A DNA stretch of 64,000 nucleotides. Origin: Dehalococcoidia bacterium (GTDB taxonomy: Bacteria; Chloroflexota; Dehalococcoidia; Lucifugimonadales; UBA3495). Below the pieces are notes generated by a model. It saw only the letters and a program-made list of their open reading frames with translations, was not told where the DNA came from and made no database searches. A program made the translations under genes and the position numbers. The stretch covers positions 3,865 through 67,864 of the forward strand of contig DAOUIF010000078.1 of NCBI GenBank assembly GCA_034423575.1. Reading direction: 5' to 3'. This document shows, piece after piece, positions 21,415-29,044 of the stretch; the stretch's first letter is position 1; every line of letters begins with the position of its first letter.

Positions 21415-23733
21415 TTGGCCGGGCTTCCTCGTTATCGAGGATTTGGGCAGCCGACGATGCTGGTATCATGGGGCCAACCTCACCCGGACCCAGTTTCACC
21501 AGCCATGGCAACGGCGCATACTTACACGCCTGAAGGGCACCGCCTGGACGCGTTCCTGGTGGGAATGTACGCCGGCCATCCCGATGCCCAGGGATTGCCC
21601 TCAGCCCGAAGAGTGGCGGCGATTGCTGCTGAACTTCTCGAGTCTTGCGACTTGGATCTCGATGCGACGGTGGTGAACACTGCGGCTCTACTGCATCTGG
21701 TGGGCCGTCCGAATGATCCGGACCGTGCGGACGGGTCGGTTGGACTGGGTGTTGCATGGCTGCGTGGTGCGGGGGCGCCAGAACCATACGTGGCGGCGGT
21801 AGCGAGGGCGATCGCGGGAGCTTTGTCGGAAGCTCCTGTGCTCGATCTCGATTTTCGGCAAGACGACAACGGCAAGTTGCTGCGGGACGCCGCGCTGCTG
21901 GACTTGGCGAGCGTTGAAAGGCATTCCGATTACTTGCGAGACGTGCCGCCGCCCGGACGGCTTCGGGAGACATACCTGGCGGAATATCGCCGCGAGTGCT
22001 TGACGCCGGCGTTGCAGTTGCGCGGCATGTTGACTCTGCCGGCGGCGTTGGAAATGTATTCCCAGCGCATACCCAAATTGTCGGCGTGGCTGGATGAACA
22101 GCCGGCCAATTTGGTCCCATCGGATTGGCGGCGCCTGGTGGAAGTGGCGGAGATCGAGAGCGGGGTGGACAGGTTGCTGGCCGGCGAAGATCCGGCGGCG
22201 GTTCGGGCCGAAATGCCCGCCGGGGGGCTGCCCTACGCGGAGTATCGGGGGCGGCAGCGGGCCATCATTGCCGGGAGTCACGACCGGATCCTGGGACTGA
22301 CCCATGCTCGCATTGAGGCGTCGCGCAACGTGGCCGCGGAAAAATACCTGGAAAGCGACACGATTCACAAGCCGGCGGTGGAGGAAAACCTGTTCGTCGG
22401 CGCGCGTCGTCGGGCCCGGCAATTGGGCTTGTCTGCGGAGACGGCGGAGGACATCGCCAGGCTGTTGCTTTCCAACGCCCGCGAGGCGCAGGAGCGGACC
22501 CTCAACGACATTGCCCAGCGTTTGAGCCGGTTGCACGGCCAGATCCTGGATGCGGAATCGCCGGAATCTCGCACCGACGAGGCTGACATAGCGATCCCTT
22601 CCCTGGTGGTTCGCACCGGGGACCAGCCGCTGGCCCGCGAGAACGAACTGATCAAGGAGCTGCGCGTCACCGGGCTGAATGAGGCCTACCCGGAACAGAG
22701 ACGCCGGTTCATGGAGTGGTTCGACCCGCCGCATCCCTACATGGAAACCGGGATGACGGTGGGCAGCAGGGACGCTGACATCTTCATGCAGTCGCTGATT
22801 GACGGCCAGCGGTGCAAGGTCGTGACGACGGTCGCCATCGACGGGCCGCCGCACTTGGGCCATGGGACTATCGCCAGCATGCTGGCGCATTTTCAGACAA
22901 TGGGCGCGGAGGTGACCATCGGTTTTCGCGACGAACTTGGCGATCTCGAAGAGGCGCGGCAATTGATGCACGACCACCTGTCAGCTATGGCAGCCAGCGA
23001 CCTGAATCTGGAGCGTGTCGACGCCTACCTGCAGCAGGACAGTCCCTCGATCGTAAGGACGGCGTTTGAACTGGGCGAGGCCATCCCGCTGAGCGTGTTG
23101 AACTCGGCGCTCGGACTCCGGTTGCGGGACAGCGCAACCGACACCTTCCGGCCGCTCCTGCGGCTGGCCGACATTCTGCACTTACAGCAACAGGAATGTG
23201 GCGGCCCTTGTAGGACACTGGTCCTCGACGGCATCGGCGGCGATGTGTACGTGCGCATGGCGCGCAACGTGGCCGATCGGTTCGGGTTCCTCAAGTCGTC
23301 TGCTTTGTATCTGCGCCCGTTGCGAAATCTGACCACCTACGAAGACCCGCGGACCGGCGACGCGGTGGAGGTCATGACCAATCGGGTCCCGCCCGGCCGC
23401 ATCACGTATAACGACGATCCGGCCGAGATCCGGCGACGCATCGGCCGGGCATACACCGGTGGCCGCGGCACGCTGGAAGAGCAGCGGGAGAAAGGTGGCA
23501 ACCCCGATCCGAGGGTCTGCTCAGTGTCCAGTCTGCACGCCTTTTACACCACGCCGGACCCGAAGGAGTACGGAGAGTTGCAAACGCGGTGCCGTGCGGG
23601 CGAGTTGCTGTGTGGGGATTGCAAGGCGTACGCGGCAGACCGCCTGCTAGAATATTTCGACCGGCATCGGCGCGAACGGGAGGGGATCTCCGACGAGAGG
23701 GACGCCCGGCCCGGTTTCCTAGCCGGCGCGTAA
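21415..23733 (+). CDS. three-module fusion: degenerate HD-like + chorismate-mutase-like + TrpRS-like (HLGH present, KMSKS replaced by VMTNR)
   Basis: See findings. The start is uncertain (TTG 21415, ATG 21457 or ATG 21505). The gene is 24 nt upstream of trpS on the same strand. Confidence 0.6.
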   Translation: MAGLPRYRGFGQPTMLVSWGQPHPDPVSPAMATAHTYTPEGHRLDAFLVGMYAGHPDAQGLPSARRVAAIAAELLESCDLDLDATVVNTAALLHLVGRPNDPDRADGSVGLGVAWLRGAGAPEPYVAAVARAIAGALSEAPVLDLDFRQDDNGKLLRDAALLDLASVERHSDYLRDVPPPGRLRETYLAEYRRECLTPALQLRGMLTLPAALEMYSQRIPKLSAWLDEQPANLVPSDWRRLVEVAEIESGVDRLLAGEDPAAVRAEMPAGGLPYAEYRGRQRAIIAGSHDRILGLTHARIEASRNVAAEKYLESDTIHKPAVEENLFVGARRRARQLGLSAETAEDIARLLLSNAREAQERTLNDIAQRLSRLHGQILDAESPESRTDEADIAIPSLVVRTGDQPLARENELIKELRVTGLNEAYPEQRRRFMEWFDPPHPYMETGMTVGSRDADIFMQSLIDGQRCKVVTTVAIDGPPHLGHGTIASMLAHFQTMGAEVTIGFRDELGDLEEARQLMHDHLSAMAASDLNLERVDAYLQQDSPSIVRTAFELGEAIPLSVLNSALGLRLRDSATDTFRPLLRLADILHLQQQECGGPCRTLVLDGIGGDVYVRMARNVADRFGFLKSSALYLRPLRNLTTYEDPRTGDAVEVMTNRVPPGRITYNDDPAEIRRRIGRAYTGGRGTLEEQREKGGNPDPRVCSVSSLHAFYTTPDPKEYGELQTRCRAGELLCGDCKAYAADRLLEYFDRHRREREGISDERDARPGFLAGA

Positions 23734-23757: not shown

Positions 23758-24774
23758 ATGGCAAACCAGCAACGAATTTTGACCGGCATGCGACCCACCG
23801 GGCAGTTGCATTTGGGGCACTACCTGGGTGCCCTGGAAAACTGGATACAGATGCAGCACGAGTACGAGTGCTTTTTCCTCATTGCCGACTACCAGGCGAT
23901 GGGGGATCACCTGGACGACATCGGTCTGATCCAGCGTTCCGTACTCGAGGTCGCCACCGACTGGCTGGCCGTGGGCCTGGACCCCGAGAAGTCGGCCTTC
24001 GTGATTCAGAGCTATGTGCCGGAGCACGCCGAACTGACCATGTTTTTCTCCATGCTCATGCCGTTGAACCAGCACCAGCGGAACCCGACACTGCGGGCCG
24101 AGACGGCGCAACTGGAAGCGGAAAACCAGTCCATCACCCTGGGGTTTTTCAACTATCCCATCAGCCAGGCCGCCGACATCCTGCTGCCCAAGGCCCACCT
24201 GGTGCCGGTAGGGGAGGACCAGGTGGCGCACATCGAGTACACGCGCGACGTTGCCCGGCGGTTCAACCGTCTGTACGGCGAGGTGTTCCCGATCCCCCGA
24301 GCCAGGGTGGGGCGCGTGCCCCGATTGGTCGGTACCGACGGCCAGGCCAAAATGAGCAAGAGCCTGAATAACGCCATCTACCTGGCCGACGGCCCGGAAG
24401 CAGTGGAGGACCGGGTGCGACGGATGGTCACCGACGTAACCGGCGAAAATCCCCGATTGCGGGCCACGGATCCGGGCGTTGTGGAATACAATCCTGCGTT
24501 TCTGTACCACGACGCGTTCAACGATAACGCCGACGAGGTGGCGGAGCTCAAGGAGCGGTACACCGCCGGAACGGTGAGCGACCGCGAGGTAAAGGAACGC
24601 CTCACGGCCGCGCTCAACCAGTTCCTGGAGCCGATCCGCGAGAAGCGGTCTTGGTATGAGGAACATCCGGATTTCGTGCGCGACGTACTGAAGGAGGGTA
24701 CAGAGCGGGAACGGGCAATCGCGCAGCAGACCATCGAGGACGTTCGCCAGGCGATGCAGGTGGTTTACACCTGA
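23758..24774 (+). CDS. trpS: tryptophan--tRNA ligase
   Basis: 338 aa with TGQLHLGH (HIGH) and KMSKS both present; GGGAGG upstream. Confidence 0.95.
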   Translation: MANQQRILTGMRPTGQLHLGHYLGALENWIQMQHEYECFFLIADYQAMGDHLDDIGLIQRSVLEVATDWLAVGLDPEKSAFVIQSYVPEHAELTMFFSMLMPLNQHQRNPTLRAETAQLEAENQSITLGFFNYPISQAADILLPKAHLVPVGEDQVAHIEYTRDVARRFNRLYGEVFPIPRARVGRVPRLVGTDGQAKMSKSLNNAIYLADGPEAVEDRVRRMVTDVTGENPRLRATDPGVVEYNPAFLYHDAFNDNADEVAELKERYTAGTVSDREVKERLTAALNQFLEPIREKRSWYEEHPDFVRDVLKEGTERERAIAQQTIEDVRQAMQVVYT

Positions 24775-24823: not shown

Positions 24824-24853
24824 GGGGCAACCGCAGGGTTGCCCCTTGTTTTG
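24824..24853 (+). terminator. rho-independent terminator of trpS
   Basis: GGGGCAACC, GCAG loop, GGTTGCCCC (perfect 9-bp stem) followed by TTGTTTTG. Confidence 0.85.
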
Positions 24854-24932: not shown

Positions 24933-24960
24933 ATGGCAGGCAATCCGCGAGACAAATATT
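24933..24960 (+). pseudogene. severed 5' end (SD, ATG and 9 codons) of the thiolase gene whose body resumes at 27843
   Basis: GGAGGG (24922-24927), 5 nt, then ATG GCA GGC AAT CCG CGA GAC AAA TAT T. Joined to 27843 onward it reads MAGNPRDKYCIVGVGETEY in frame with ORF 27854..29044. Confidence 0.75.
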
Positions 24961-24987
24961 GGGGAATTACCGGGATAAGTTGACAAA
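24953..24987. repeat. left target duplication (CAAATATT) plus left terminal inverted repeat of the transposon
   Basis: 24955-24987 AATATTGGGGAATTACCGGGATAAGTTGACAAA matches the reverse complement of 27810-27842 at 30 of 33 positions (hand count). Confidence 0.8.
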
Positions 24988-25008
24988 GTAGCGTTCCGCC
25001 GGTAGCAT
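24980..25008 (+). promoter_or_regulatory. inward-facing promoter in the left IR driving the MTase-HNH gene (leaderless geometry)
   Basis: TTGACA (24980-24985), 17 nt, TAGCAT (25003-25008), then 6 nt to the ATG at 25015. Confidence 0.55.
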
Positions 25009-25014
25009 CGCCGC

Positions 25015-26587
25015 ATGGCTGCCGCTACCCGAAATTTCGCCAATCGTACCCTTTTTCACGGCGATAATCTACCCTTCCTGCGGGGCATGAACTCCGGGAC
25101 GGTCAACCTCATCGCCACCGATCCGCCGTTCAACAAGAACAAGGACTTCCATTCCACCCCGAACAGCCTGGCCAGCGGCGCCCGCTTCGTTGACCGCTGG
25201 GCATGGGAGCGCGACGTTCACCAGGATTGGGTTGACGCCATCAAAGACGACTGGCCCGGCGTCTGGCAGGCCATTGAGAACGGGCGGGTCAACCACTCGG
25301 AGGGCATGGCTGCGTTCCTGTGCTGGCTCGGCATCCGGCTGATTGAGTGCCGGCGCGTGCTGGCCGACGACGGCAGCCTGTACCTGCACATCGACCACAC
25401 CGCCCACGCCTACGCGAAGTGCCTGCTTGACGCCATCTTTGGCCGACGCAACTTTCGGAACGCGATTGCATGGCAGCGCAATGATGGCCGGGGCAAGGGC
25501 AGTCAGCACAACCCGAAATCATGGGGGTCGAATACTGACATCCTACTGTTTTATGCCAAGTCTGAGCGGGGGGGTAAAACCGTTCCGGGAACTCACCGCC
25601 GAAGAAGTGGAGGCGAAATTTCCGCGCACTGATGAAAACGGCCAGCGTTTCTATGCAGGGATCCCCGTGTTTTGTTCGCAGTCAATGGGGGCACGCCCCA
25701 ACCTCTGCTTTGAGTGGCGCGGGTTCCGCAATCCGCATCCGAGCGGTTGGCGGTTGAGCAAGGAGCGTCTGGAAGAGGAGTACCAGAAAGGCAACGTCGT
25801 AATCCGACCTGACGGCAAGTTGGAACGGCGCAAGTATCTTGACGACTATGAGGGCATCCCTGTTGATGATTTTTGGGGAGACATCCCGCGCTTGACGGAT
25901 GGCAACGAGCGTTCCGGCTACCCAACGCAGAAACCCCTTGCGTTGTACGAGCGGGTCATCGCGGCCAGCAGTAACCCCGGCGATCTGGTGCTGGACCCGT
26001 TCGCGGGCTGCGCCACCACGCCGGTAGCGGCGGAGCGGCTGGGCCGGCAGTGGGTCGGCATGGACATTTGGGACGGGGCGATTGACGAGGTGCGCCGCCG
26101 CATGGCGGATAGCCGCCAGTTGCTCACCGACGCCAACCCCCAGATCATCTATGCCACCATCCCGCCGGAGCGCACCGACGGCGACGACGGCGACGACGAC
26201 GGCCCCGAGGTTCCCGACCTGGTGCTGCGCCCGCAACGTCAGCCGGAACGCTGGGAACGGCTGTCCCACGCCGAAATGCGGGATATTCTGGCGACTGCCC
26301 AGGCCAACGGAGATAGCGTCGTTTGCGCCGGTTGCGGGATACAGCTGCCCGTGCGCTACATGGAGCTGGACCATATCACGCCGCGCAAGGACGGCGGCGA
26401 GAACGTCATCACCAACCGGATACTGCTGTGCGGGCCGTGCAATGGGGCGAAGTCCGCCAACCTCACGCTGTCGGGGCTGGTGCGGCACAACCGGCGGTTG
26501 GGATTTGAAGTAGATAGGGGCTTGGCGGAACTGGCCGCCAGCCGAGCGCGGGACGCTGCCCAGCGTTGCCGGGATACGATACGCTGA
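25015..26587 (+). pseudogene. beta-class N6-adenine/N4-cytosine DNA methyltransferase fused to a C-terminal HNH endonuclease domain; frameshifted at a G7 run
   Basis: DPPF (motif IV) precedes VLDPFAGCATT (motif I). YPTQKP is present, and the HNH signature reads CAGCG...DHITPRKDGGE...NRILLCGPCNGAKS. ORFs 25015..25632 and 25343..26587 meet at GGGGGGG (25568-25574). Confidence 0.85.
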
Positions 26588-26791
26588 CTACTCTTTGATC
26601 TTCTCCACCCACCAAGCGGCGATGTAGGTGTCGCCGCCAATCTTGCCGACGATTTCGCCGTCGGCCATTTTCAGGGTAAAGGCGCTGCCCTCCTGCTCCA
26701 TATCATCGGCCCTGATACGGATGACGGAAGGCCACTGCCCGGATGATTTTGCGTCCATCTGGAAGCAGTAGAACTTGTTGACGATGGTCAT
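26588..26791 (-). CDS. 67-aa hypothetical protein (transposon passenger)
   Basis: ATG ORF starting 4 nt after the transposase stop. Its stop abuts the MTase stop with a 0-nt gap. No motif recognised. Confidence 0.45.
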   Translation of the reverse strand: MTIVNKFYCFQMDAKSSGQWPSVIRIRADDMEQEGSAFTLKMADGEIVGKIGGDTYIAAWWVEKIKE

Positions 26792-26795
26792 ATCC

Positions 26796-27758
26796 CTACA
26801 CCCAACCGAATTGCCCGGTGCGGCTCATGCCATTATCGGCGGTGAGGTCGGCGTAGGTCAACCTCTTGCCGATGCAACCGCGCACCAACGCAGCCATTTG
26901 GTCGAGCGTGTCGCTGGGCCGTTTGTTGAACCGGCCCTCGAACTCGGCTACGTAGCGGTCAAGATGCTTGACCGACATCCAGTGATAAATCCCGGTGTAG
27001 CCGCGCTTGAGCAATGCCCAGAACGATTCCATCCCGTTGGTGTGCGCCATGCCCTTGACGAACTCGCCCACGGAGTGCGTAACCGTTTCGTGCCGGCGGT
27101 TGAGCCGGTTAAACACCCGCGCTTCATCGGTGAATACCAGGGTAGTCGGCTCCGTGCGCTGGTGAACGAACTGCCGCATGGTGGGGCCGTCTTCGTGCTC
27201 AATGACTTTGGCGTCCACCTTGCCAGTTTCGCGGTCTTTGACGCCGGCCACCGGGGTTTTGCCGACTGCGCCGCGCCCCTGGTGCTTGCGCTTGGATTCG
27301 TGCTTGTTCTTCTCAACGCCACCGATGAACGTCGTATCGGATTCCACCGGGCCGGAGAAGACCGGATCGTCGCCAGCCATCGCCGCGCGGATACGATGTC
27401 CCATGTGCCAGGCCGAACCCTGGTGTATGCCCAGGTCGCGGGCCAGTTTGGTAGAGCTGACGCCCTTCAGGTTGGTGCAAATCTGATAGAACGCGATAGC
27501 CCACTTGCGGAGCGGGATTTTCGAGGATTGCATCACGGTTCCGAACTTCACGGAGAAATACTTGCGGCAATCGGAGCACCAGTAGGGCATCGGCTCGGCG
27601 TTGGGAACTTCGCTGGTGTTTTCGCCGTCGCAGCGGGCGCAGACGCGGCCATTGGGCCAGCGGATGGACTCAAACCACGTCTGGGCAGCATCATCGTCCG
27701 GGAACATCTCGAACAGGTCAATCAGGGTAATGCCCTTGCGAAAACTCTTACCGGCCAT
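26796..27758 (-). CDS. IS1595-family (ISXO2-like DDE) transposase
   Basis: N-terminal zinc ribbon CARCDG...CSDCRKYF, then VESDTTFIGG, VFTDEARVFNRL and HTNGMESFWALLKRG...HLDRYVAEFEGRFNKR. Confidence 0.92.
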   Translation of the reverse strand: MAGKSFRKGITLIDLFEMFPDDDAAQTWFESIRWPNGRVCARCDGENTSEVPNAEPMPYWCSDCRKYFSVKFGTVMQSSKIPLRKWAIAFYQICTNLKGVSSTKLARDLGIHQGSAWHMGHRIRAAMAGDDPVFSGPVESDTTFIGGVEKNKHESKRKHQGRGAVGKTPVAGVKDRETGKVDAKVIEHEDGPTMRQFVHQRTEPTTLVFTDEARVFNRLNRRHETVTHSVGEFVKGMAHTNGMESFWALLKRGYTGIYHWMSVKHLDRYVAEFEGRFNKRPSDTLDQMAALVRGCIGKRLTYADLTADNGMSRTGQFGWV

Positions 27759-27788
27759 AGCGATTCACCATCCTTGATTGCTGGGATG

Positions 27789-27817
27789 ATGATAGCAGGC
27801 TAGGGCGGGTTTGTCAA
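27789..27817 (-). promoter_or_regulatory. inward-facing promoter in the right IR driving the transposase
   Basis: Minus strand: TTGACA (27817-27812), 17 nt, TATCAT (27794-27789), about 30 nt upstream of the ATG at 27758. Confidence 0.55.
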
Positions 27818-27842
27818 GTTATCGCGGTAATTCCCAAATATT
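27810..27842. repeat. right terminal inverted repeat plus right target duplication (CAAATATT)
   Basis: Reverse complement AATATTTGGGAATTACCGCGATAACTTGACAAA. See 24953-24987. Confidence 0.8.
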
Positions 27843-29044
27843 GCATCGTTGGGGTGGGCGAAACCGAGTACAGCCGGGCCTCGGGACGCACCACCCGCGC
27901 CCTGGGCGCCGAGGCGATCCGCAACGCCATGAACGACGCCGGCCTGACGCCCGACCAGGTGGACGGGATGCTCAGCTACCACGGCGGCGACTCCACGCCG
28001 TCGACGTCGATACAGTACGACCTGGGCATCCGGCCGAATTTCTACATGGACTGCTCCGGCGGCGGGTCTTCCACGGAGGCGCTGGTGGGTTTGGCCATCG
28101 GTGCGATCGAGGCGGGGATGTGCGACGTGGTGGCGATTTTCCGATCGATGAACGGCTACTCCAACGTGCGCATCGGAGGCACCGGCGCGCGGGCGTCGGC
28201 TCCCATCGGCGGGCTGGACCTGATGAAGCGGCCCTACGGCCTGATCAGCGCCGTGCAGCAATTCGCCTACACCTTCACGCGCCACATGGCCGAGTACGGG
28301 GTCAAGAGCGAAGATCTGGCGGCCATCAAGGTGGCTCACTCCATTCACGCCTCCAATAACCCCAAAGCGCTGATGAAGCACCGGGTGACCGTGGACGACG
28401 TGATTAACTCCCGGTGGATCATCCGGCCGGTGGCCCACCTGTTGGACTGCTGCCTGGAAACCGATAACGCCACCTGCGTCATCGTCACTTCCGCCGAGCG
28501 GGCCCAAGACCTGAAGCACAATCCGATCTACATCAAAGGAGTGCAGGGTCGCGGCACCAAGCCCGGCGGCGACTTCCACTACCAACACGGGCCGATCTCG
28601 CGGGTGGCCGGCCACTATATCGCGCCGCGCATTTTCGATCTGGCCGGCGTAAAGCATGAGGACGTTGACATCACCGGCTGCTATGACGCCTTCACCTACA
28701 CCGTGTTGCTGCAGTTCGAGGACTACGGCTGGTGCGAGAAGGGCGAGGGCAAGGACTACGTGACCAGCGGCATCATCAACCTGGGTGGCAAGCGGCCCAA
28801 CAACCTCAGCGGCGGGCACCTCTGCGAGGGGTACACGCACGGGATGAACATGGTGATCGAGAACGTGCGACAGCTACGGGGCACTGTCGATGACTACTGC
28901 CCGGGCGCTTTGGAAGGCGACCACACCTACGAGTACGCCGAGGGAGGCTGCCGCCAGGTGAAGGATGCCAAGATCAGCATGAACATGGGTTGGGGGACGC
29001 CGGCCGTCGGCAGCGCGCTCATCATGGGCAACGTGCTCAGCTGA
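27843..29044 (+). pseudogene. thiolase-like protein (SCP-x / DUF35-associated type), body of a gene decapitated by the transposon
   Basis: ...IVGVGETEYSRASGRTTRALGAEAIRNAMNDAGL...; followed by its usual DUF35 partner. There is no SD or canonical start upstream of GTG 27854. Confidence 0.75.

What the first reader, a model, noticed from the sequence alone, without database searches (positions are those of the whole stretch)
25015..26587. DNA methyltransferase covalently fused to an HNH nuclease, switched off by a +1 slip in a G7 run
ORFs 25015..25632 and 25343..26587 are two frames of one gene. Motif IV DPPF (IATDPPFNKN) and ...ILLFYAKSE lie before the break. YPTQKPLALYERVI and the AdoMet motif VLDPFAGCATT lie after it. 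The order IV before I indicates a beta-class amino-methyltransferase. The last ~110 aa carry an HNH signature (CAGCG...ELDHITPRKDGGE...NRILLCGPCNGAKS). The frames meet at seven consecutive G (25568-25574); with six G the product reads ...YAKSERGVKPFRELTAEEVEAKF... without interruption. A single-polypeptide MTase-HNH carried by an IS could be a compact selfish modification/nuclease module with homopolymer on/off switching. It could also be a decaying gene, or simply a base-calling error.
Basis: partly seen in the sequence, partly recalled or inferred. Interest (0 to 1): 0.7.

Follow-up and report, generated by a model that had tools for sequence, protein, structure and literature searches.

The report
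Switchable methylase-nuclease gene on a transposon
A small jumping-gene element in a sponge-associated bacterium carries one gene that fuses a DNA methylase to a DNA-cutting domain; a run of G bases that changes length between closely related copies turns the gene on or off, and the copy here is off.

Summary
Seven G at 25568-25574 split one gene into ORFs 25015..25632 and 25343..26587. With six G it reads as a 523-aa protein: a beta-class DNA methyltransferase (Pfam 3e-38) plus a C-terminal HNH nuclease (5e-10).

The gene lies inside a 2874-bp IS1595-family transporter IS (24962-27835). The element has 26-bp inverted repeats, a perfect 8-bp target duplication (AAATATTG) and inward-facing promoters inside both repeats.

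The switch reading is supported by comparison. A 93%-identical sister element, recovered from several sponge metagenome samples, is 99.7-100% identical between contigs except for this tract. The tract there is G10, G12 (intact 522-aa allele), G13 or G14.

Other family members carry separate long G/C tracts at at least three other positions (G9/G11, G18, C15). dN/dS between the window copy and the intact sister copy is 0.07 on both sides of the tract, so this is not an old pseudogene.

Caveats:
- All three assemblies of the window lineage have G7 (off). No on-allele of this lineage was found.
- The fusion is not unique. It is a sizeable, uncharacterised family spread across phyla.
- Nuclease and methylase activities are inferred, not shown.

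Verdict: real; a new variant of known kinds.

The parts
24954..24961 (.). Left copy of the 8-bp target-site duplication, AAATATTG
   Evidence: Identical 8-mer directly outside both inverted repeats
24962..24987 (+). Left terminal inverted repeat (IRL), GGGAATTACCGGGATAAGTTGACAAA
   Evidence: 24 of 26 positions match the reverse complement of 27810-27835. The same GGGAATTA...TTGAC repeat type occurs in L052, L071, L072 and L073.
24980..25008 (+). Promoter-like site TTGACA-17-TAGCAT. The -35 hexamer lies inside IRL and the site ends 6 nt before the ATG, so the mRNA would be leaderless or nearly so.
   Evidence: Consensus scan, 10 of 12 matches. Function is inferred.
25015..25632 (+). Frame 1 of the methyltransferase-HNH gene: N-terminal 184 residues (motif IV DPPF at 25120-25131), then 21 out-of-frame codons and a stop
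25568..25574 (+). Poly-G tract, G7, the off state. G6 or G9 would be in frame. It encodes the Gly of a variable surface loop (...KSERG-V...).
   Evidence: loop 182-189 in the model. The orthologous tract is G10/G12/G13/G14 in the sister element.
25575..26587 (+). Frame 2 of the same gene: target-recognition region, motif I VLDPFAGCATT (25988-26020), a conserved linker containing PPxRTD, and the HNH domain (26324-26458)
26588..26791 (-). orf67, a 67-aa ORF with no family match. It sits in a roughly 300-bp patch (26534-26833) that is almost invariant between the two element lineages.
26832..26861 (-). Promoter-like site TTGACC-18-GATAAT upstream of orf67
   Evidence: consensus match only
26796..27758 (-). 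IS1595-family transposase (N-terminal zinc ribbon plus DDE domain), 320 aa
   Evidence: PF12762 at 1.6e-34 and PF12760 at 2.1e-7. dN/dS against the sister copy is 0.053.
27789..27817 (-). Promoter-like site TTGACA-17-TATCAT (extended -10) for the transposase. The -35 hexamer lies inside IRR.
   Evidence: 11 of 12 matches
27810..27835 (-). Right terminal inverted repeat (IRR)
27836..27843 (.). Right copy of the 8-bp target-site duplication, AAATATTG

Best explanation
Positions 24962-27835 are a 2874-bp IS1595-family 'transporter IS'. It inserted, with an 8-bp duplication, between a Trp/Tyr-tRNA-synthetase gene and a thiolase-like gene of a chromosome that is probably from a sponge-associated Chloroflexota bacterium.

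Besides its transposase, the element carries one integral gene, apparently transcribed from a promoter embedded in the left inverted repeat. That gene encodes a single-chain enzyme. It has a beta-class amino-methyltransferase resembling Type III Mod, with a central exchangeable target-recognition region. A conserved linker of about 60 residues joins it to a zinc-ribbon HNH (beta-beta-alpha-metal) nuclease.

Expression is governed by a poly-G tract that encodes glycines in a tolerant surface loop. Slipped-strand mispairing changes the tract length and moves the gene in and out of frame, as in a simple-sequence contingency locus. In this window the tract is G7, one base too many. Translation therefore stops after 205 residues, and the target-recognition region, the AdoMet-binding motif and the nuclease are not made. 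The gene is off.

Shown: the anatomy, the domain identities, the insertion, tract-length polymorphism with on and off alleles in the sister element, recurrent tracts in the family, and purifying selection.

Inferred: the protein acts as a self-contained restriction-modification-like unit, methylating its target and nicking or cutting unmodified DNA. Switching would then limit self-damage or vary the defence and epigenetic state.
For: Anatomy of the element.

Ancestral frame and loop position of the tract.

Sister element:
- It shares 93% nucleotide identity with the window element and sits at a different chromosomal site.
- It was recovered in seven contigs from different samples and assemblers. 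These are 99.7-100% identical over 2872 bp with 0-2 mismatches.
- The tract differs: G12 in L082 and L083 (intact 522-aa P0123), G13 in L001, G14 in L084 and L085, G10 in L086 and L087.
- ENA and Logan assemblies of the same sample agree on the length.

Independent tracts in other family members:
- G9 versus G11 at the AYRGGGVP site, where G10 would be in frame.
- G18 in the linker of a gammaproteobacterial copy.
- C15 and C9 directly after the start codon.
- C7, C8 and C13 at the PPxRTD codons.

Purifying selection: dN/dS between the window copy and the intact sister copy is 0.073 at dS 0.31. It is 0.058 before the tract and 0.081 after it, and there is no other lesion.

Self-contained unit: among 80 related loci the only recurrent neighbours are tandem paralogues and IS1595 transposases.

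Specificity exchange: P0001 is 89-92% identical outside residues 153-297 but 14% identical inside them.

The same element layout with the same type of inverted repeat occurs in Alpha- and Gammaproteobacteria.
Against: - All three assemblies of the window lineage have G7, and no in-frame allele of this lineage exists in the protein collection. G7 is at the low end of tract lengths regarded as hypermutable, so this copy could be stuck off.
- Consensus assemblies cannot show minor length variants. Lengths of long G tracts from short-read assemblies carry some error.
- Of about ten distinct tract states seen in the family, only one (G12) is in frame. This is compatible with chance (P about 0.1) but also with widespread inactivation.
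- No biochemical datum exists for methylation, target sequence or cleavage. No paper describing this fusion was found.
Confidence: 0.65

Rival explanations
1. This copy is a recently inactivated pseudogene. In the window lineage the +1 insertion is fixed and the gene is simply dead. Tract variability in relatives reflects a mutational hotspot through which copies decay, not a selected switch.
For: G7 appears in all three assemblies of this lineage and no on-allele was found. Most tract-bearing relatives are out of frame. Some relatives carry frameshifts that are not at homopolymers (L062, L064). MTase-only relatives lacking HNH exist (P0087, L049, L070, L077).
Against: There is no second lesion in 1.57 kb. 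dN/dS is 0.07 on both sides of the tract, equal to that of the transposase. An intact allele persists at the same locus in the sister lineage. Tracts of 10-18 bases at four or more different positions of one gene family are hard to explain without selection for mutability. They sit in loops where extra Gly or Pro residues are tolerated.
Confidence: 0.25
2. Programmed recoding. The full-length protein is made from the G7 template by transcriptional slippage or +1 ribosomal frameshifting on the G run, so the gene is not really off.
For: A tRNA-Gly reading GGG could re-pair one base downstream (GGG to GGG) and continue with GUA AAA CCG, which is the in-frame product (from the sequence). The window G7, sister G10 and G13, and the L071 G18 tract are all one base longer than an in-frame length. 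Polymerase slippage increases with run length (established knowledge; review PMC5009743 listed).
Against: Sister alleles occupy all three frames (G12 in frame, G13 +1, G14 +2), so no fixed frameshift requirement is conserved. No stimulatory stop codon, rare codon or downstream structure was identified. G7 is short for efficient polymerase slippage. Gene callers and homologues show in-frame genes as the norm: about 73 of the 80 loci sit in a single frame.
Confidence: 0.07
3. Sequencing or assembly artefact. The true sequence is G6 and the gene is intact.
For: Homopolymers are error-prone. The window comes from a metagenome assembly.
Against: The same G7 is found in a JGI contig and in an independent Logan assembly of SRR10406098, with the element 100% identical in both. 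Seven bases is short for systematic error.
Confidence: 0.03

Closest known systems
Phase-variable Type IIG restriction-modification enzyme Cj0031 of Campylobacter jejuni (PMC4889913)
   Same: One polypeptide carries both a methyltransferase and a nuclease. It is switched on and off by an intragenic poly-G tract, and both on and off alleles occur in populations.
   Different: From established knowledge, Cj0031 and MmeI-type enzymes have an N-terminal PD-(D/E)XK nuclease and a gamma-class methyltransferase, and Cj0031 is not IS-borne. Here the methyltransferase is beta-class and the nuclease is a C-terminal HNH. The gene lies inside an IS1595-family element, and the hosts are uncultured sponge-associated lineages.
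Phase-variable Type III mod genes ('phasevarions'; EcoP15I Mod is the structural prototype, PDB 4zcf)
   Same: The methyltransferase is beta-class with a central, exchangeable target-recognition region. EcoP15I Mod is the best structural match (Foldseek E 2.7e-17). Simple-sequence repeats inside the ORF cause on/off switching.
   Different: No res (helicase-nuclease) gene is adjacent in any of the 80 loci. The nuclease is instead a fused HNH domain. There is no ATPase.
IS1595-family transporter IS (Siguier, Gagnevin and Chandler 2009, as cited in PMC3129680, PMC8496243 and PMC2853133)
   Same: A zinc-ribbon plus DDE IS1595 transposase, short terminal inverted repeats, an 8-bp target duplication, and a passenger gene inside the inverted repeats.
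   Different: The passenger is a methyltransferase-HNH gene whose promoter -35 hexamer lies inside the inverted repeat. It recurs with diverged transposases (36-60% identity) in three phyla, so it looks like an integral gene rather than accidental cargo. I could not read the 2009 paper to check whether such a passenger is already listed.
Stand-alone beta-class N6-adenine/N4-cytosine methyltransferases of phages and plasmids (for example Streptomyces phage Hippo gp48, Rhizobium plasmid NZ_CP099398.1)
   Same: The same methyltransferase core and the same target-recognition type, 41-43% identical over residues 13-365.
   Different: They lack the linker and the HNH domain. None of 72,556 plasmids or 50,697 phage records holds a match covering 80% or more of the fused protein.

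Membership tests
Beta-class N6/N4 amino-DNA-methyltransferase (Pfam PF01555) | Profile match above the curated threshold | tested here: met
   132.4 bits against a cut-off of 26.7, residues 30-357
Beta-class N6/N4 amino-DNA-methyltransferase (Pfam PF01555) | Circular permutation: catalytic motif IV (D/S)PP(Y/F) lies N-terminal to AdoMet motif I, with the target-recognition region between them | tested here: met
   DPPF at residues 36-39 and VLDPFAGCATT at 325-335. Both are invariant in the alignment. Fold matches are EcoP15I Mod, CcrM, MboIIA and RsrI.
Beta-class N6/N4 amino-DNA-methyltransferase (Pfam PF01555) | Methyl transfer to DNA; which base (N6-A or N4-C) and which target sequence | not testable with these tools
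   DPPF favours N6-adenine by analogy only
HNH (beta-beta-alpha-metal) nuclease, Pfam PF01844 | Profile match above the curated threshold | tested here: met
   39.8 bits against 21.4, residues 437-481. There are also matches to the IscB/Cas9d HNH regions and to PHROG HNH families.
HNH (beta-beta-alpha-metal) nuclease, Pfam PF01844 | Catalytic D-H...N...N/H residues and two CxxC zinc ligand pairs are conserved; beta-beta-alpha topology | tested here: met
   C437, C440, D452, H453, N467, C472, C475 and N476 are conserved in 90% or more of 23 sequences. The model has strands 449-453 and 468-472 followed by helix 473-479, with pLDDT 84-96.
HNH (beta-beta-alpha-metal) nuclease, Pfam PF01844 | Metal-dependent DNA nicking or cleavage | not testable with these tools
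   No experiment possible
IS1595-family insertion sequence (transporter IS) | Transposase with an N-terminal zinc ribbon and an IS1595-type DDE domain | tested here: met
   PF12760 at 2.1e-7 and PF12762 at 1.6e-34
IS1595-family insertion sequence (transporter IS) | Terminal inverted repeats flanked by an 8-bp target duplication | tested here: met
   26-bp inverted repeats with 24 of 26 matching, and AAATATTG on both sides. The sister copy lacks a duplication.
IS1595-family insertion sequence (transporter IS) | The whole unit, including the passenger gene, has moved | tested here: met
   The 2.87-kb unit is 93% identical in the window and in L001/L082 but sits between unrelated flanks
Simple-sequence (homopolymer) phase-variable contingency locus | Repeat tract inside the reading frame whose length sets the frame | tested here: met
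Simple-sequence (homopolymer) phase-variable contingency locus | Tract length differs among otherwise near-identical copies, with both on and off alleles | tested here: met
   Sister element: G10, G12 (on), G13 and G14 with 0-2 mismatches in 2872 bp. In the window lineage itself only G7 was seen, so this feature is not met for that lineage alone.
Simple-sequence (homopolymer) phase-variable contingency locus | Within-population heterogeneity and a high reversible switching rate | not testable with these tools
   Raw reads are needed. One hint only: two contigs break about 55-80 bp upstream of the tract.
Type IIG / MmeI-like single-chain restriction-modification enzyme | Nuclease and methyltransferase in one polypeptide | tested here: met
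Type IIG / MmeI-like single-chain restriction-modification enzyme | N-terminal PD-(D/E)XK nuclease followed by a gamma-class methyltransferase and a C-terminal target-recognition domain (definition from established knowledge) | tested here: not met
   Here the methyltransferase is beta-class with an internal recognition region, and the nuclease is a C-terminal HNH. It may work like a Type IIG enzyme but is not a member of that family.
Type III restriction-modification system | mod gene paired with a res (helicase-nuclease) gene | tested here: not met
   No conserved neighbour in 80 loci apart from paralogues and transposases. PADLOC matches only the methyltransferase models.

The most novel reading that the evidence does not exclude
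The methyltransferase-HNH proteins could be an uncharacterised class of self-contained, mobile restriction-modification enzyme: a beta-class methylase with a C-terminal HNH and no partner gene. On this reading they travel on IS1595-type elements and on transposase-less cassettes bounded by inverted repeats. They would be passed between bacterial and archaeal phyla inside sponge microbiomes, change specificity by swapping the recognition region, and be kept tolerable for the host by hypermutable G/C tracts that evolved independently at several positions of the gene.
Probability: 0.35. Interest if true: 0.75.

Novelty: new variant of a known kind. Interest (0 to 1): 0.6.

Why it matters
Phase-variable methyltransferases and restriction enzymes are known almost only from host-adapted pathogens such as Neisseria, Haemophilus, Helicobacter and Campylobacter. 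Here the same logic appears in uncultured sponge-associated Chloroflexota and other phyla, on a gene that is itself carried by an insertion sequence.

If the fused HNH cuts unmethylated DNA, this is a very compact mobile restriction-modification unit: about 1.6 kb, with no partner gene. Its nuclease type and domain order match none of the characterised single-chain enzymes I know of.

The family offers natural on and off alleles in public sponge metagenomes. Methylome comparison between samples could therefore read out the enzyme's target directly. It also gives a concrete route by which defence or epigenetic specificities are shared across phyla within one host-associated community.

Tried and rejected
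- Metagenome DNA-pattern scan for further tract variants: no hits. The JGI contig that does carry the sequence is evidently not in that collection.
- Scan for an empty target site: no hits.
- Literature searches for the fusion under several wordings and for phase variation in sponge symbionts: nothing relevant. The hit PMC9674854 concerns unrelated proteins. Siguier et al. 2014 (PMC7190074) is not held, and the 2009 IS1595 paper could not be read.
- PADLOC and PHROGs: only generic methyltransferase and HNH families, so no known defence system claims this protein.
- Rfam on the element: nothing.
- Terminal inverted repeats around the five loci where the transposase lies directly upstream on the same strand (L021, L037, L039, L059, L081): not found with my search windows, so their boundaries are unresolved.
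- The idea that the HNH serves transposition: rejected, because about 70 of the 80 relatives have no transposase nearby.
- 'Type III Mod with a lost Res': considered and rejected as a family assignment, because no locus has a res gene.
- Statistical rarity of G7 as an argument: rejected, because a Markov model expects a few such runs per window.
Full report
**1. The observation**

Removing one G joins them into a 523-aa protein reading ...FYAKSERGVKPFRELTAEEVEAKF....

Pfam places N6_N4_Mtase at residues 30-357 (3e-38) and HNH at 437-481 (5e-10). Both are well above the curated cut-offs. NCBIfam and PDB sequence searches agree. CcrM, MboIIA, DpnA, RsrI and Type III Mod proteins match the methylase part. 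Cas9/IscB-type HNH regions match the C-terminus.

Motif IV (DPPF, 25120-25131) precedes motif I (VLDPFAGCATT, 25988-26020), which is the beta-class order.

An AlphaFold model (mean pLDDT 80) finds EcoP15I Mod as its best PDB neighbour, followed by other beta-class enzymes. No solved structure among the matches has the fused architecture. In the model the HNH region forms two strands and a helix at high confidence. The four zinc cysteines and D452, H453, N467 and N476 are conserved in 90% or more of 23 aligned homologues.

**2. One gene, and where the break sits**

Intact homologues of 450-570 aa with both Pfam domains fill the top of a protein search (E down to 2e-220). In the alignment the G6 frame continues across the break. 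The break lies in a 5-6-residue variable loop between the conserved FYxKS strand and the PYRxLT segment. In the model this is a coil at residues 182-189. A run of G there only adds or removes glycines when it changes by three bases.

**3. Is G7 real, and is it unusual?**

It is the only G/C run of 7 or more in the 64 kb, but an order-3 Markov model expects 3.6 +/- 1.6. The run is therefore not improbable in itself.

It is reproducible. The window's own proteins are on record from an 82-kb contig. A JGI contig is 100% identical over 8981 bp. A Logan assembly of SRR10406098 differs by one base at 28985, outside the element. Both of these have G7.

**4. The carrier**

The gene lies inside a 2874-bp element, 24962-27835.
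- It has 26-bp terminal inverted repeats (GGGAATTACCGGGATAAGTTGACAAA, 24 of 26 matching).
- It has a perfect 8-bp direct duplication, AAATATTG, on both sides.
- On the minus strand it encodes a 320-aa IS1595-type transposase (zinc ribbon plus DDE) and a 67-aa ORF with no family match.
- Each inverted repeat contains a TTGACA hexamer that forms an inward-facing promoter-like site. TTGACA-17-TAGCAT ends 6 nt before the methylase ATG. TTGACA-17-TATCAT lies before the transposase gene.

The element sits between a Trp/Tyr-tRNA-synthetase gene and a thiolase-like gene, in a chromosomal neighbourhood that also includes gyrA.

IS1595-family elements with passenger genes ('transporter IS') are an established category (Siguier et al. 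2009, as cited in PMC3129680, PMC8496243 and PMC2853133).

**5. The decisive comparison**

A Chloroflexota metagenome-assembled genome contig (L001) carries the same unit at 93% nucleotide identity, between completely different flanking genes. The gene is split there too, but the tract is G13.

The 90%-identity protein cluster contains an intact 522-aa allele (P0123...KSERGGGVKPF...) and many fragments. Reading the DNA of this sister element at the same chromosomal site gave seven contigs.

| Contigs | Tract | State |
|---|---|---|
| L082, L083 | G12 | in frame, 522 aa |
| L001 | G13 | out of frame |
| L084, L085 | G14 | out of frame |
| L086, L087 | G10 | out of frame |

Apart from the tract, the copies are 99.7-100% identical over 2872 bp, with 0-2 mismatches. 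ENA and Logan assemblies that appear to come from the same samples agree on the length (G10 in L086 and L087; G11 in L094 and L095). This argues against assembler noise.

The tract is thus the one hypervariable position of the element, and it occupies all three frames. That is what a simple-sequence contingency locus looks like. It also argues against an obligatory programmed frameshift.

**6. The gene has been under selection**

Between the window copy (read as G6) and the intact sister copy, dS is 0.31 and dN/dS is 0.073. The ratio is 0.058 upstream and 0.081 downstream of the tract. That is the same as for the transposase (0.053), and there is no other lesion. The gene is therefore not an old pseudogene. 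A very recent, permanent inactivation cannot be excluded.

**7. The family**

A scan of one genome per species found 593 relatives. The best 80 are almost all metagenome-assembled genomes of lineages typical of sponge microbiomes:
- many Chloroflexota;
- Poribacteria and Nitrospira;
- Alpha- and Gammaproteobacteria;
- Bacteroidota, Spirochaetia and Acidimicrobiales;
- a Nitrosopumilus archaeon.

Several record names say 'sponge metagenome' or belong to sponge studies.

The linker-plus-HNH module alone retrieves 204 representative clusters at E <= 1e-10.

The fusion is absent from 72,556 plasmid and 50,697 phage records. Those hold only methylase-only relatives, at up to 43% identity.

No paper describing the fusion was found. 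Sponge symbionts are known to be rich in transposases and restriction-modification genes (PMC4850255).

In the 80 loci the only recurrent neighbours are further methyltransferase-HNH paralogues in tandem (about 14 loci) and IS1595 transposases (10-11 loci). No res, helicase or separate nuclease gene recurs.

Three proteobacterial loci (L052, L072, L073) have the same layout as the window, with inverted repeats of the same type (GGGAATTA...TTGAC). One locus (L071) has such repeats around the methyltransferase-HNH gene alone.

Specificity regions are exchanged. P0001 is 91%, 92% and 89% identical to the window protein in the N-terminal, catalytic and HNH parts, but 14% identical in residues 153-297.

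**8. Recurrent tracts**

Other members carry long G/C runs at other positions, nearly all out of frame.

| Locus | Tract | Position |
|---|---|---|
| L091-L093 vs L094-L095 | G9 vs G11 | AYRGGGVP site (G10 would be in frame) |
| L071 | G18 | inter-domain linker, which would leave a methylase without HNH |
| L068 | C15 | directly after the start codon |
| L027 | C9 | directly after the start codon |
| L075 | C7 | PPxRTD codons |
| L081 | C8 | PPxRTD codons |
| second copy in L053 | C13 | PPxRTD codons |

Independent origin of long tracts in tolerant Gly/Pro loops of one family is the strongest argument that mutability is selected rather than accidental.

**9. Mechanism**

Shown: an IS-borne, single-chain methylase-HNH gene whose frame is set by a hypervariable poly-G tract. 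In this window it is off and yields a 205-aa fragment that lacks the recognition region, the AdoMet motif and the nuclease.

Inferred, from domain content, the lack of partner genes and the swapping of recognition regions:
- The protein works like a single-chain restriction-modification enzyme, methylating its site and nicking or cutting unmodified DNA.
- Switching relieves self-damage or varies the defence and epigenetic state.

It works like the phase-variable Type IIG enzyme Cj0031 (PMC4889913) and like Type III mod phasevarions. It is not a member of either family: the methylase class, nuclease type and domain order differ from Type IIG, and there is no res gene.

**10. Rivals**

| Rival | Confidence | Why |
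|---|---|---|
| Recently dead copy | 0.25 | Only G7 was seen in this lineage. |
| Programmed slippage | 0.07 | Several off alleles are +1, but all three frames occur and G12 is in frame. |
| Sequencing artefact | 0.03 | G7 is reproduced in independent assemblies. |

**11. Verdict**

The architecture is not unique to this window, but the family appears uncharacterised. It combines known principles (transporter IS, single-chain restriction-modification, homopolymer phase variation) in a new arrangement and in an unexpected ecological setting. I rate it a new variant of a known kind, interest 0.6.

Noticed in passing
window 26534-26833: A patch of about 300 bp is almost invariant between the window element and its 93%-identical sister: 4 mismatches in 300 nt against about 8% elsewhere. 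It covers the 3' end of the methylase-HNH gene, all of orf67 (minus strand) and the 3' end of the transposase gene. orf67 has dS 0.026 against 0.27-0.31 for its neighbours. It has no Pfam, PADLOC or PHROG match and there is no Rfam hit. The RNA fold z-score is -2.55 on the minus strand and -0.72 on the plus strand. This could be nucleotide-level constraint or a recent recombination patch; it is unexplained.
   Followed up: partly
L002 4518-5951 and about 13 other loci of L002-L081: Methyltransferase-HNH genes often occur as tandem paralogues with different recognition regions (9 upstream and 5 downstream on the same strand).
   Followed up: partly
L071 5840-7750 (Gammaproteobacteria, OZ241853.1): IS1595-type inverted repeats (GGGATTATATACA.AACTTGAC) flank a methyltransferase-HNH gene with no transposase. 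It looks like a non-autonomous cassette. The gene carries a G18 tract in the linker, which would truncate only the HNH part.
   Followed up: partly
L068 8801; L053 1497; L021 4531; L002 12163; L012 9191; L042 11046; L064 8126: The flanks of related loci hold further long G/C runs (9 to 28 bases). One is a 13-mer that splits a gene of about 1000 aa in L068. One is a 28-mer at the 5' end of a 325-aa ORF in L053. One is a G9 at the 5' end of another beta-class methylase in L021. These genomes may have many contingency loci.
   Followed up: partly
L091 5782-6637 and L094 1780-2445: The relatives that carry the second tract site (G9/G11 at AYRGGGVP) lie next to an IS6/IS240-type (rve) transposase rather than IS1595, so the gene associates with more than one IS family.
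   Followed up: no
L082 5947-8817 (sister element): The sister copy has intact inverted repeats but no target-site duplication (AATAATTG on the left, TTGAGAAC on the right). This suggests a rearrangement after insertion or recombination between copies.
   Followed up: no
L026 5794 and L023 5926: C15 and C9 runs lie 70-200 bp upstream of methyltransferase-HNH genes in similar sequence contexts (GATT..-Cn-GAAT). They may be promoter-region tracts.
   Followed up: no
window 21415-23733 and 23758-24774: A 772-aa ORF with weak chorismate-mutase and class-I Trp/Tyr-tRNA-synthetase-like matches lies directly upstream of a canonical 338-aa Trp/Tyr-tRNA synthetase. This is an unusual pair of paralogues.
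   Followed up: no
window 24824-24845: A strong bidirectional terminator-like hairpin (9 pairs, 7 of them G-C) follows the tRNA-synthetase gene, just outside the left end of the element.
   Followed up: no
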